A stretch of DNA of 64,000 nucleotides from Raja brachyura (taxonomy: Eukaryota). A program made the position numbers. Shown here piece by piece: positions 21,001 to 24,000 of the stretch; positions within the stretch are counted from its first letter, which is position 1, and each line of letters opens with the position of its first letter. Location of the stretch: NCBI GenBank assembly GCA_963514005.1, contig OY740800.1:32860001-32924000 (forward strand). Reading direction: 5' to 3'.

Positions 21001-24000
21001 TTTCTCTCTCCATGGAAGATGGACGCTAAAAAGCTGGAGTAACTCAGCGGGTCAGAGTGTGTCTGTGGAGGGGGGGGGGGGGTGGGGAAAGGAATTGGTG
21101 ACATTCTGGGTCCAGAGATGCTGCCTTACTCGCTGAATTACTCCAGCTTTCTGCGTCCAGCCAACGGTGAATAGTCTGACTAAGTTCTCTGTAATTCTAT
21201 GTCCTGAGCTGCCTCTTCACCCGGCCTGCCTGAGGGTTACACAAAAAGCTGGAGAAACTCAGCGGGTGCAGCAGCATCTAAGGAGCGAAGGAGATGGGCG
21301 ATGTTTCGGGTGGAGACCCTTCTTCAGACCCTGAGGGCCTGCCTGCCGATCAAACACATTTTGTCGACCAGTCAAGCTTTGTTCACTTTTCATAGTTATT
21401 CACTATTTGTAAGCTGGGCAAGTGAGACCACCCTTGAGGACTGGGATCTGTTCCCTGCCAGGACTGCCAACCATTCCGGCATAGCCAGGAACTTTCCAGG
21501 AGTTAAAGATTAATCTTCTGGATACTGCTGCTCACAACTGAATGATTAAAAAAAATTCCATGGCTGCAATAAATAAAATTGGACATTGCCTTCAATTTGT
21601 TTGTGCATTTTAAATGGGTGGAAGTTGCCTTTTTGCCAATCTATAATCATTCATATGTGAGGGTGAGTTCCTGTTGACTTGCACTTGCTGCGGCTGAACA
21701 CTGAGCTTCGGGATTAGGTGAGCATTGGGGAGTTTTGGGGAGACGTATAACTCTCGGTATGTTTCTTCTATTTCCACTGTAGTCCCTTGTGGCATTTAGA
21801 TTTTCACTTGTTTAAAATGAGTTGGTTATAATGACAAGATGGTATACACGTTTTTCCTTCACTGGTTCAGCAGCATTCTTTGTTGGCCATCCAAGGACAG
21901 TCCTAGATGCCTACTCAATTAAAGGCCGGTGCAGGGGTAGAGTTGCTGCCTTACAGCGCCAGACACCCGGGTTCGATCCTGACTACGTGTGCTGTCTGTA
22001 ATGTACAGAGTTCGCATATTCTCTGTAATTGTGTGGTTTTTCTCCGGGTGCTCCAGTTTCCTCCCACACTCCAAAGACGTGTAGGTTTGCAGGTTAATTG
22101 GCTTTTGTAAATTGTCCCTACTGTGTAGGATAGGCTAGTGTGTGGGTGATCATTGGTCAATGTGGACTCTGTTGGTGTGCCTCTGATTAGCAATCAGCTA
22201 TGTTGCCTTTAATATAAGTGATTTCTCTCCCTCCGTGGATGCTGCCTGACCTTCTGAGTATAGATGTTATTTTATGTTTTTATTCCTGCTATTGTGTGGG
22301 CACAGGATTTGAATCTGGTTGTGACCCACAAGATATGTTCTTTTTTTAAACACACCTTAGAATGAGTTTACTACACTTTTGAGATATAGTGCGGAAACAG
22401 GCCCTTTGGACCACTGCGTCGACTAGCAATCTAACCTAAACACTCGGGACAATTTACAATTTTACCAAAGCTGATTAACATGCAAACCTATACGTCTTTG
22501 AAGTGTGGGAGGGAACCTGGACAAACCCATGCTGTCACAGGGAGAAGGTACAAGCTCCGTACAGACAGCACCCGTAGCCAGGATCGAACCTGGATCTCTG
22601 GCGCTGTAAGGCAGCGACTCTACTGCTGCACCACAGTGCAGCCCCTAATGAGTTGTATGTGAACTGTTTTGACCATAAGGTCATATCATAGCAACAGTTT
22701 GGGCTTTCAGTTGAGTTGGAAAAGGAGCTGAAAGTTTTTTTAAAGAAAAGTTTGTTTTTTAAAAATCAGTTCTTAACAGGACGAATAAGGGGAAATTGAG
22801 GACAGGAGCAGGGTCAGTAAGCAGAGAACCTGGAGATGAGTATTTCTTGCATCCTGATAGTCAAGATGTGGAGTGCACAGTCTGAAAAACTCTTAAATCA
22901 ATTAAACAGTGACTCTGACAAAGACATTGAATGAGTACTTGAAAAGAAGATGCTACTGCATTCAGGGGAAATAAAAGTATTTGGGTGACATTGCAAAGGA
23001 GGCACGATGGAGAAAGCTTTCCTCCTCTGCAGGATCATCTTTTGTGGCCAGCTGTTGGTCCCAGCTCTCGGGGATCGTGTGAAGCTGTTTAGAACATAGT
23101 TCAGTGTCAGCACTGAAGGTTATTTCCCTTTGAGGACGGACGTGGAGATAAAGAACTCATTCCACATGACTGCAATAGGATGGAGCATTTCAGTTCTACA
23201 ATTAAACTCCAAGTGCTCCACTGCTGTCCCATTGTTGGTCCTATTGAACGGCCCAGTGGGTCGAGGGCAGCCTGTGTATGTGGGTCAGGCACAACATGGT
23301 GTACACAAACTGAGCAAATGGAAGTATAAAGTCAATCATTGCTGTCGGGCATCAGTACGGAATGGACTAAAAGGGCGAGTAGTTTGCACTCAAGAAGAAT
23401 CTGGTTTGATTCTAGGCACTGACTCTTTGGCATCCAAGGATTGGTTCTCCTTTGTCCGTGCGACTCCATAGTCAACCTGAAGAAGAGTTTCGACCAGAAA
23501 CATCACCTATTCCTTTTCTTCAGGGATGCTGCCTGACCCGCTGAGTTACTCCAGCATTTTGTGCCTTTCTTCGGTGTAAACCAGCATCTGCAGCTTCTTC
23601 CTGCTCCATAGTTTGGCTATTCCACACAGCATAGGACCTCCGTCCTAGGACCAAGCTGGAATTCCCTTTTTTCCCCTACTACTTGATAATAAAGCTCTTA
23701 GGAGGCAGGTCTATCCCATTTTGTGCAGAAATACCGACCCTAGCTTTTGCCCAAGAGTTTTAATGCTGCGTCCTTGCAGCTGCCAGCACTTTGATGGAAT
23801 TAAGTTGGGTTTGGTCCAGTTGTCAACTGTCCGTTGTGCTTGTTCAGATGGGACGGTTGCCTTTACCGTTCTGCAAGCTGGTTCATCCAGGTTCTTGAAG
23901 TCTTTCACAGTCTTTCCTGGTACCAGCCTAACCTGCTCCCAGCACTTCCTCGTACCAGTGCCAACTAACCCACATGGCCTTCCAAGTTGGCAATAAACTT

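What the first reader, a model, noticed from the sequence alone, without database searches (positions are those of the whole stretch)
21229..21337. Minimal ~93-bp ribozyme insertions with TSDs and a recurrent 5' junction at the catalytic core
Seen: two independent inserts of one subfamily are both 93 bp (21237-21329 with an 8-bp TSD; 53333-53425 with a 9-bp TSD). These two, plus 23473-23603 and 29594-29723, all start within 0-4 nt of the CUGA. Random 5' truncation would not cluster this way. Inference: either a discrete retrozyme/SINE-like mini-RNA is being mobilised, or the ribozyme fold defines where reverse transcription ends.
Basis: partly seen in the sequence, partly recalled or inferred. 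Interest (0 to 1): 0.7.

Follow-up and report, generated by a model that had tools for sequence, protein, structure and literature searches.

The report
Penelope-type mini retroelement ends with hammerhead
The 93-bp inserts are real retrotransposed copies of the terminal piece of a Penelope-like retroelement that carries a minimal hammerhead ribozyme motif, a known kind of element, although their sharp start right at the ribozyme core is not explained in the papers I read.

Summary
21237-21329 and 53333-53425 are 93-bp inserts with exact 8- and 9-bp target-site duplications (TSDs). They belong to a family with 38 hits in the window. Five of 8 TSD-flanked solo copies start within -4..+4 nt of the C of CUGA.

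[quoted passage not shown] - two classes of 3' end about 39 nt apart, matching the optional PLE "tail" that lies between two reverse-transcription start sites;
- nine head-to-head inverted pairs;
- TSDs of 8-14 bp.

The 93-bp class is the tail-less form. Short copies are interleaved with long ones in the tree. There are no tandem arrays, no junction at the predicted cleavage site, no Rfam hit and no covariation, so a retrozyme or circular-RNA reading is not supported.

No reverse transcriptase or endonuclease fragment lies in the window, and only 3 arms extend about 20 nt further upstream. The template therefore seems to be short. The start coincides with an initiator-like TCAGTCT, so cDNA run-off at a discrete RNA 5' end is my preferred, unproven, explanation.

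Rating: new member of a known kind, modest interest.

The parts
21229..21236 (.). Left TSD (CCTGAGGG) of the first 93-bp insert
21237..21329 (-). 93-bp tail-less solo unit. The ribozyme-sense strand is minus. It starts GT+CUGA and ends ...TTTTTGTGTAA.
   Evidence: (HMM positions 3-92, E 4e-18)
21300..21327 (-). Minimal hammerhead motif CUGAAGA-A-GGGUCUCCACCC-GAAAC-AUC. The 15.2/16.2 pair is lost through a CG>CA change.
21330..21337 (.). Right TSD of the first insert
53324..53332 (.). Left TSD (ATGTAGGTT) of the second 93-bp insert
53333..53425 (-). 93-bp tail-less solo unit inserted into a SINE copy. It starts CAGT+CUGA. The motif at 53394-53421 is intact (…GAAAC-GUU).
53426..53434 (.). Right TSD of the second insert
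23473..23603 (+). 131-bp solo unit with tail. 9-bp TSD CTCCATAGT at 23464-23472 and 23604-23612. It starts CAAC+CUGA.
29594..29723 (-). Solo unit with tail. 12-bp TSD at 29582-29593 and 29720-29731, which overlaps CTGA. The motif is intact (GUC).
47043..47113 (+). Third tail-less solo unit with an internal deletion. 10-bp TSD CATCTATACC. It starts TGT+CUGA.
62090..62180 (-). Tail-bearing copy, 5'-truncated near consensus position 46, with an 11-bp TSD. It fixes the sense of reverse transcription: constant 3' end, variable 5' end.
12168..12251 (-). Tail-less copy truncated inside the hammerhead core (about position 10), with an 8-9-bp TSD
35147..35378 (+). Head-to-head pair. Inverted tail-less arm 35147-35241, 4-nt spacer, direct arm with tail 35246-35378. 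14-bp TSD at 35133-35146 and 35379-35392.
27422..27674 (+). Head-to-head pair. Inverted tail-less arm, 26-nt spacer, direct arm with tail. Both arms start at HMM position 2.
8845..9109 (-). Head-to-head pair. The main arm is on the minus strand, with a tail and an upstream extension of about 20 nt. The inverted tail-less arm is 9019-9109.
4161..4693 (.). Head-to-head pair in which both arms carry tails, with a 235-nt unique spacer. The left arm has the upstream extension.
1091..1308 (-). Old head-to-head pair with almost no spacer
15506..15638 (+). Solo unit with tail that extends about 17-20 nt upstream of CUGA (CTCTCCCCTGACTCTCAGT)
44168..44582 (-). Solo unit with tail, split by a later SINE insertion at 44223-44515. 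It starts GT+CUGA and the motif is intact.
34099..34192 (+). Tail-less solo unit (HMM positions 2-95). No TSD was found.

Best explanation
The 93-bp inserts are the shortest regular products of a Penelope-like-element (PLE) type retrotransposition system. Each is a solo copy of the element's terminal unit, pLTR-like.

On the sense strand the unit starts 0-4 nt before the CUGA box of a minimal hammerhead motif. It ends at the first of two reverse-transcription start sites (consensus position about 92-98). Copies of 131-133 bp end at the second site about 39 nt further on, and so carry the optional PLE tail.

Integration is target-primed: staggered nicks leave 8-14-bp TSDs. When both nicked strands are extended, the two cDNAs meet 5' end to 5' end. 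This gives the head-to-head inverted pairs.

The sharp 5' boundary is most simply cDNA run-off at a discrete 5' end of a short template RNA. That end may be a transcription start at the initiator-like TCAGTCT, which overlaps the start of the unit.

Shown here: the insertions, their TSDs, the two classes of 3' end, the inverted pairs, the motif, and the clustering of 5' ends.
Inferred: the PLE enzyme as the mobiliser, run-off at an RNA 5' end, and any ribozyme activity.

My confidence is about 0.8 for the identity of the element and about 0.45 for the run-off mechanism.
For: Family: nhmmer finds 38 arm hits in the window.

3' ends: they are bimodal. 21 hits end at about position 90-104 (this count includes 12249 and 35241, whose HMM ends of 113 and 123 overrun their TSDs) and 14 at 128-133. 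Three more end earlier because they are cut or split (22226 at 74, 57856 at 75, 44582 at 82). This matches the 30-40-bp optional tail described in passages of PMC8557442 and PMC3846280. PMC11167929 equates the tail with the stretch between two internal RT start sites (whole main text read).

Orientation: 62090-62180 keeps the tail end but lacks positions 1-45, and it has an 11-bp TSD.

Inverted pairs: there are 9 head-to-head pairs within 250 nt and 0 tail-to-tail. An adjacent inverted 5'-truncated copy is a stated PLE hallmark. The anole PLE protein cleaves and extends both strands.

TSDs: 8-14 bp here, against 8-10 bp in rotifer PLEs.

Motif: CUGANGA, a spacer of 11-14 nt that includes the extra base, GAAA, NN, UH occurs in 6 copies against 0.15 expected. 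The extra base after A9, G10.1-C11.1 and the palindromic 15.2-16.2 are the features listed for PLE min-HHRs in PMC4209133. That paper also reports dual motifs on opposite strands 100-700 bp apart and thousands of single motifs in fish, coelacanth and frog.

Short template: 0 of 128 ORFs of 85 aa or more has an RT or GIY-YIG hit. Only 3 arms (15522, 8976, 4321) carry a shared extension of about 20 nt.

5' clustering: 5 of 8 TSD-flanked solo copies fall in the window, and 9 of 19 solo arms overall.

Promoter precedent: D. virilis Penelope has an internal LINE-like TATA-less promoter with Inr and DPE (passages of PMC2377424).
Against: - No PLE ORF is in the window, so the link to a PLE enzyme rests on architecture alone.
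- Helix I is at most 2 bp, against the 4-5 bp typical of min-HHRs.
- No Rfam hammerhead model matches, even at E<=10 in 21000-30000.
- Helix pairs show no covariation beyond shuffles: 150 of 500 shuffles reach the observed score.
- Single units do not fold better than shuffles: z = +0.44 and +1.30 for the two 93-nt RNAs.
- TSDs are not AT-rich (0.556 against 0.544 for the window), whereas the anole element prefers ATT.
- There are no direct partial tandems in the window.
- In D. virilis the transcription start lies 46 nt plus a 75-nt intron upstream of the ribozyme, not at it.
- The initiator consensus is recalled from memory. A match at one given position has a chance of about 1 in 128 by my arithmetic, and more than that for a match anywhere within a few positions of the boundary.
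- Several TSDs resemble the element's own upstream CTCTCAGT, which fits a microhomology rival.
Confidence: 0.65

Rival explanations
1. A discrete retrozyme-like or SINE-like mini-RNA with its own source genes is being mobilised. It is processed by its hammerhead and possibly circularised.
For: The two 93-bp copies share about five diagnostic differences and are nearest neighbours. No long copy or coding fragment is in the window. A 2026 preprint argues that animal retrozymes derive from PLE pLTRs (abstract, part 1 of 5 of the text (through the start of the Methods) and passages read).
Against: There is no tandem array of the unit. 0 of 38 arms starts at the predicted cleavage site, position 34. 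The motif is the minimal type without helix III or loop-loop contacts, not the canonical type I hammerhead of retrozymes. The other tail-less copies are interleaved with tailed ones. According to the anole work, a 93-bp copy lacks the RNA downstream of the RT start that the enzyme needs.
Confidence: 0.12
2. The ribozyme fold, or the protein bound to it, stops reverse transcription at the core.
For: The same boundary is seen in solo copies, in both arms of pairs and in an older CUGAUGA subfamily at 58823. In the anole element the protein binds RNA near the ribozyme and assists its cleavage.
Against: The enzyme travels 3' to 5', so it has already copied GUC, GAAA, helix II and CUGANGA before it stops. 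A block should lie 3' of the structure. A pause site should also leak and leave many longer copies, yet only 3 arms go on, and all 3 end about 20 nt further upstream. No stable fold is predicted.
Confidence: 0.12
3. The 5' junction is set by microhomology. The top-strand end of the target anneals to the cDNA where it resembles ...CTCAGT/CTGA. Alternatively the cDNA primes on itself at the near-palindrome CAGNCTG.
For: The TSD of 29594 ends in CTGA and matches the element's CTCTCAGTCTGA at 10 of 12 positions. The TSD of 21237 (CCCTCAGG) matches CTCTCAGT at 6 of 8 (matches counted by eye). Microhomology-mediated 5' junctions and palindromes at inverted junctions are described for rotifer PLEs.
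Against: The TSDs of 53333, 47043 and 62090 show no such resemblance. Random targets would scatter the junctions unless the nuclease also prefers such sites, and the nine TSDs share no motif.
Confidence: 0.1
4. The unit is a tRNA-derived, polymerase-III SINE read on the opposite strand, and the hammerhead-like motif is the accidental complement of its B box.
For: The complement of helix II plus G12 (GGGTCGAGACC) matches a recalled B-box consensus at 10 of 11 positions. TAACTCAGCGG matches a recalled A box at 9 of 11. These are sequence readings; the consensus sequences are from memory.
Against: ARAGORN finds no tRNA-like fold anywhere in the window. On that strand the TSD-flanked copy 62090-62180 would be truncated at its 3' end with an intact 5' end, the reverse of target-primed copies. 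The tail would then be an optional 5' leader and the pairs would be tail-to-tail, against the PLE pattern.
Confidence: 0.04

Closest known systems
Penelope-like elements: pLTR or solo pLTR with optional tail and inverted partner (PMC3846280, PMC8557442, PMC11167929)
   Same: Heavy 5' truncation with a constant 3' end. Two 3' end classes 30-40 bp apart. An adjacent inverted 5'-truncated copy in head-to-head orientation. TSDs of about 8-14 bp. A hammerhead motif upstream of the RT start sites.
   Different: No RT/GIY-YIG ORF and no direct partial tandem in this window. The unit is only about 95-135 nt long and begins at the ribozyme core, whereas described pLTRs are about 180-220 bp (rotifer) or reach more than 120 nt upstream of the ribozyme (anole). 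The targets are not AT-rich.
Minimal hammerhead ribozymes of metazoan PLEs (Cervera and De la Pena 2014, PMC4209133)
   Same: CUGANGA and GAAA boxes, an unpaired base between positions 9 and 10.1, a G10.1-C11.1 pair, a palindromic 15.2-16.2 with no loop 3 (implying action as a dimer), dual motifs on opposite strands, and many solo motifs per genome.
   Different: Helix I is only 2 bp here. That paper reports 2 bp for the D. virilis variant but 4-5 bp as typical. Activity is untested, and most copies here have lost G12 or the ACGU through CpG decay.
Metazoan non-LTR retrozymes (PMC7229834; bioRxiv 10.64898/2026.07.22.740005)
   Same: Short non-coding hammerhead-bearing repeats thought to be mobilised by PLE enzymes, with TSDs longer than 4 bp.
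   Different: Retrozymes are tandem arrays with canonical type I hammerheads and give circular RNAs. Here there are no tandems, only a minimal motif, and no ends at the cleavage site.
5' truncation and twin priming of LINE-1; HDV-like ribozymes that set the 5' end of R2/RTE RNAs (recalled; the latter is cited in PMC4209133)
   Same: Target-primed reverse transcription, variable 5' ends, inversions created at integration, and a ribozyme near an RNA 5' end.
   Different: Twin priming inverts a different segment and does not make palindromes. A hammerhead cleaves 3' of its core, so it cannot create an end just 5' of CUGA. No HDV-like model matched.

Membership tests
PLE minimal hammerhead (min-HHR) | Catalytic boxes CUGANGA ... 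GAAA followed by a cleavable NUH | tested here: met
   6 copies against 0.15 expected in shuffles. Also present in the consensus.
PLE minimal hammerhead (min-HHR) | Unpaired nucleotide between A9 and 10.1, and a G10.1-C11.1 closing pair | tested here: met
   CUGAAGA-A-GGGU...ACCC in the consensus and in the 6 intact copies. G-C at that pair in 18 of 25 arms.
PLE minimal hammerhead (min-HHR) | No helix III loop, and palindromic positions 15.2-16.2 (dimer design) | tested here: met
   GAAA-C-G-UC gives ACGU in the consensus and in 4557, 29726 and 53424. It has decayed to ACAU in 21329.
PLE minimal hammerhead (min-HHR) | Helix I of about 4-5 bp flanking the core | tested here: not met
   Only U2.1-A1.1 and G2.2-C1.2 can pair. 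74% of cells are paired and there is no covariation. Copies that start at CUGA lack the 5' strand altogether.
PLE minimal hammerhead (min-HHR) | Structure supported by compensatory changes | tested here: inconclusive
   The covariation score of 0.187 is reached by 150 of 500 shuffles. The copies are decayed relatives of one ancestor.
PLE minimal hammerhead (min-HHR) | Self-cleavage (as a dimer or with protein) | not testable with these tools
   Needs transcription and cleavage assays. Published min-HHRs cleave poorly in vitro.
Rfam hammerhead families | Match to a curated covariance model | tested here: not met
   No match at gathering score in the whole window, and none at E<=10 in 21000-30000.
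Penelope-like element insertion | Constant 3' end with variable 5' truncation, flanked by TSDs | tested here: met
   62090-62180 is the clearest case.
Penelope-like element insertion | Optional 30-40-bp tail at the 3' end | tested here: met
   3' ends fall at about 90-104 in 21 hits and at 128-133 in 14 hits.
Penelope-like element insertion | Adjacent inverted 5'-truncated copy (head-to-head) | tested here: met
   9 head-to-head pairs and 0 tail-to-tail within 250 nt. In 4 pairs (1091-1308, 8845-9109, 27422-27674, 35147-35378) only one arm has the tail.
Penelope-like element insertion | ORF with telomerase-like RT and GIY-YIG endonuclease joined to the repeat | tested here: not met
   0 of 128 ORFs of 85 aa or more (4 ORFs that overlap the N run were left out) has such a Pfam hit. 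This holds for the window only; the genome could not be searched.
Penelope-like element insertion | Partial direct tandems forming pLTRs | tested here: not met
   No tandem of the unit and no same-strand adjacent copies of one subfamily.
Non-LTR retrozyme | Tandem repeats, each with a canonical type I hammerhead, and circular RNA | tested here: not met
   No tandem arrays and only a minimal motif. Circular RNA is not testable here.
tRNA-derived SINE on the opposite strand | tRNA-like fold and 5'-complete, 3'-anchored copies | tested here: not met
   ARAGORN finds 0 genes. The truncation polarity is the opposite.

The most novel reading that the evidence does not exclude
The unit is a self-contained PLE parasite of about 95 or 135 nt. 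Its RNA starts at its own first bases, driven by an internal LINE-like promoter: an initiator-like TCAGTCT, and perhaps the ACGU-containing stretch acting as a downstream element. That promoter overlaps the hammerhead core.

The palindromic ACGU, through dimerisation of two RNAs on a dimeric enzyme, would then organise two-ended target-primed reverse transcription. This would produce both the solo 93-bp copies and the head-to-head pairs.

In that reading the hammerhead motif is kept for promoter or dimerisation functions rather than for cleavage.
Probability: 0.15. Interest if true: 0.6.

Novelty: new member of a known kind. Interest (0 to 1): 0.33.

Why it matters
PLE integration is still poorly understood, and two features of it were explained only in 2024: the tail, and cleavage with extension of both strands. 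This family is so short that the whole template lies between the hammerhead core and the RT start sites. That makes it a compact natural test case for three questions:
- what sets the 5' end of PLE cDNAs;
- how the inverted pairs arise;
- whether the minimal hammerhead is needed for anything other than cleavage.

For genome annotation, it also shows that these abundant 90-135-bp repeats and hairpins should be labelled as PLE-derived. One of the hairpins gave a sub-threshold microRNA-like hit.

Tried and rejected
- **Rfam.** No family matched at gathering score for the whole window. At E<=10 for 21000-30000 there were only weak unrelated matches. One of them, MIR533 at 21033-21147, is just an inverted pair of arms.
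- **Folding of single units.** Folding on both strands gave no stable or hammerhead fold.
- **Covariation.** Counts on 25 arms were uninformative.
- **tRNA scan.** ARAGORN found nothing.
- **Tandem repeats.** No arrays of the unit.
- **Coding partner.** Pfam scans found no RT or endonuclease in 128 of 132 ORFs of 85 aa or more. The other four overlap the N run and were left out.
- **Upstream extension.** BLAST of the 200 nt upstream of 15522 showed that this sequence is a different SINE. Only about 17-20 nt belong to the family.
- **Spacers of pairs.** They are either unique sequence or another repeat family.
- **Literature.** A full-text search for a 20-nt stretch of the motif found no paper. 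A search for PLEs in cartilaginous fishes gave nothing useful. A search pairing hammerhead with shark returned fish ecology.
- **AGTCTGATGA at 31109.** This is a chance match, not a family member.
- **HDV-like ribozyme setting the 5' end.** Considered and dropped, because no model matched.
- **Self-cleavage setting the 5' end.** Dropped, because no copy starts at position 34.

- supplementary figures of PMC4209133 and PMC11167929, which may show vertebrate min-HHR families or the 5' ends of genomic copies.
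Full report
**What is at the coordinates.** On the minus strand, 21237-21329 reads GT-CUGAAGA-A-GGGUCUCCACCC-GAAAC-AUC ... CUCCAGCUUUUUGUGUAA. It is flanked by the exact 8-bp repeat CCTGAGGG. 53333-53425 reads CAGT-CUGAAGA-A-GGGUUUCGGCCC-GAAAC-GUU ... CUCCAGAAAUUUUGUC, flanked by the exact 9-bp repeat ATGTAGGTT. The second insert interrupts a copy of an unrelated, very abundant SINE. The two halves of that SINE align to one continuous paralogue with the TSD duplicated, so the insertion is shown directly. Both inserts are 93 bp, but only by compensation: one has two more bases at the 5' end and about two fewer at the 3' end.

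**The family.** A profile built from 11 copies finds 38 arms in the 64 kb. The consensus on the ribozyme-sense strand is 134 nt. It runs CAGT, then the hammerhead-like segment, then a well-conserved body (...GATGCTGCCTGACCCGCTGAGTTACTCCAGCATTTTGTGTCTAT), then a 39-nt stretch (CTTCGG...CCTACAC).
- 3' ends fall in two classes. 21 hits end at about position 90-104; two of these were read by the profile a little past their TSDs. 14 hits end at 128-133. Three more are cut or split.
- 5' ends: 20 of 38 arms reach profile position 5 or less.
- 18 arms form 9 head-to-head inverted pairs with spacers of 0 to about 250 nt. No tail-to-tail pair lies within 250 nt.
- In four pairs the inverted arm lacks the 39-nt stretch and the direct arm has it.

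**TSDs and polarity.** Exact flanking repeats of 8-14 bp were found at 9 of 20 loci tested, against 0.6% of 2000 random pseudo-inserts.
- 47043-47113: tail-less, 10 bp;
- 12168-12251: tail-less, truncated inside the core;
- 45014-45103: 5' end unclear;
- 62090-62180: tail present, positions 1-45 missing, 11 bp;
- the pair 35147-35378: 14 bp.

Copy 62090 shows that the tail end is the constant end and the CUGA end the variable one. The ribozyme-sense strand is therefore the template sense, as in target-primed reverse transcription.

**Clustering of 5' ends.** Of 8 TSD-flanked solo copies, 5 start within -4..+4 of the C of CUGA. P = 6.7e-5 for a 9-nt window in 133 nt, and 3.8e-6 for a 5-nt window; the window was chosen after seeing the data. 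Counting all 19 solo arms, 9 start there. One arm (15522) runs about 17-20 nt further, one is unclear, and 8 are truncated deeper. Two arms of pairs (8976, 4321) share the same extension of about 20 nt, CC(C/T)CTCC(C)CTGA(C/A)NCTCAGT. An older subfamily with CUGAUGA (58823) starts exactly at the CUGA. No arm starts at the predicted cleavage site: 0 of 38.

**Is it a ribozyme?** No Rfam family matches, at gathering score or at E<=10. Single units do not fold better than shuffles, and helix pairs show no covariation beyond shuffles. However, the motif carries every feature that Cervera and De la Pena list for the minimal hammerheads of metazoan PLEs (main text, parts 1-2 of 4, read):
- both catalytic boxes;
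- an unpaired base after A9;
- a G10.1-C11.1 pair;
- a palindromic 15.2-16.2 with no loop 3, so that helix III can form only between two molecules;
- thousands of solo motifs, and dual motifs on opposite strands.

Six copies keep the full box pattern, against 0.15 expected. Helix I is at most 2 bp, which that paper reports only for the D. virilis variant. Most copies have lost G12 or the ACGU, both of which lie in CpG dinucleotides. Activity is untested. Published min-HHRs cleave poorly in vitro. In the anole element, cleavage needs the protein and is dispensable for insertion in vitro.

**What it is.** The architecture is that of PLE termini.
- Craig et al. describe heavy 5' truncation, an adjacent inverted 5'-truncated copy, and a 30-40-bp tail often present at only one end (passages).
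- Arkhipova et al. describe pLTRs with discrete ends, palindromes at the inverted junction, a 31-bp optional tail, TSDs of 8-10 bp, solo pLTRs, and pLTRs that suffice in cis for mobilisation (passages).
- Frangieh et al. show that the anole PLE enzyme starts reverse transcription at two internal sites and that the tail is the stretch between them. They also show that the enzyme cleaves and extends both strands, and they predict that it is a dimer (main text read).

The 93-bp class is therefore the tail-less product and the 131-133-bp class the tailed one. The pairs fit extension from both nicks. In the two tailed copies that I folded, the tail pairs back on the body (AGAUGCUG with CAGCAUCU) and encloses the first end site. 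This recalls the stem-loop at the anole start sites.

**Why the start is sharp.** No RT or endonuclease fragment occurs among 128 ORFs of 85 aa or more, and nothing beyond about -20 is shared between copies. Random truncation of a kilobase-long template is therefore excluded in this window. The template looks short.

The boundary lies in TCAGTCT, which fits the initiator consensus as I recall it (YYANWYY; TCAGT in flies). D. virilis Penelope has an internal TATA-less promoter with Inr and DPE, like LINEs (abstract and passages). Against this, the fly start site lies 46 nt plus an intron upstream of the ribozyme.

I therefore prefer run-off at a discrete RNA 5' end, at roughly 0.45. The alternatives are a stop at the ribozyme or bound protein, microhomology or self-priming at CAGNCTG, and a true mini-RNA cycle. 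The stop is awkward because the core has already been copied when synthesis ends.

**Tree.** I built a tree of 23 of 26 arms; 47043, 44168 and 57856 were dropped for gaps. The two 93-bp copies are nearest neighbours with weak support (59/84) and group with the old copy 58823. The other tail-less copies are scattered among tailed ones: 8 changes on 20 rows, with no clustering beyond shuffles. The tail-less state is thus a property of the insertion process, not of one lineage.

**Context and limits.** The window contains an ORF at 58997-60136 (+) that matches the kinase domain of HIPK2 almost residue for residue. I searched that ORF as a single piece only and made no spliced or joined model. I do not take the window for human. 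Min-HHR families and retrozymes are reported absent from mammals, and the repeats here are fish-type SINEs. From memory they look like those of cartilaginous fishes, but I did not test this. The N run at 61687-61850 was left alone. No eukaryotic genome collection was available, so the genome-wide tests could not be run.

Noticed in passing
58997-60136 (+): An open frame of 379 codons. Its last roughly 190 residues match the kinase domain of homeodomain-interacting protein kinase 2 almost residue for residue (E 5e-126 to PDB 6p5s). It is probably the large first coding exon of HIPK2, so the repeats studied here lie upstream of the gene or in its intron.
   Followed up: partly
44223-44515 and about 35 further places (e.g. 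12526-12820, 30510-30804, 52076-52362, 53189-53551): A very abundant SINE of about 290 bp with a tRNA-like head (not called by ARAGORN). One copy splits the unit at 44168-44582. Another is the host of the 53333 insert and so provides its empty-site control.
   Followed up: partly
9652-9901, 37126-37246, 28506-28757, 38381-38556, 48700-48858, 39557-39790, 2318-2566: A second repeat family of about 250 bp. At two loci (9556-9988 and 37090-37389) it sits between two inverted arms of the hammerhead unit; elsewhere it has no arms. I did not resolve whether it inserted into pairs or was captured between them.
   Followed up: no
21015-21160: An inverted pair of truncated arms around a G run forms a long hairpin. 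It gave a sub-threshold Rfam match to a plant microRNA family (MIR533: 24.9 bits against a gathering score of 80). This is an artefact of the inverted repeat, not a microRNA.
   Followed up: yes
44583-44591: Nine bases (GAAACATCG on the minus strand) lie between a possible 10-bp TSD (one mismatch) and the GTCTGA start of the unit. They resemble positions 25-33 of the unit itself, as if a short template switch had occurred at the 5' junction.
   Followed up: no
29594-29724 (-) and 23473-23603 (+): In both tailed copies that I folded, the tail pairs back on the body (AGAUGCUG with CAGCAUCU in 29594) and encloses the tail-less end site. 23473-23603 folds better than shuffles (z = -3.28), partly through copy-specific pairs.
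   Followed up: partly
16651-16803; 31693-31726; 61687-61850: A 23-bp tandem repeat of 6.7 copies, a run of 34 C, and a run of 164 N (left untouched).
   Followed up: no
4322-4556: A unique 235-nt spacer between two tailed arms. Its first roughly 30 nt continue the upstream extension of the left arm. The rest has no other copy in the window and could be a longer piece of the source element.
   Followed up: partly
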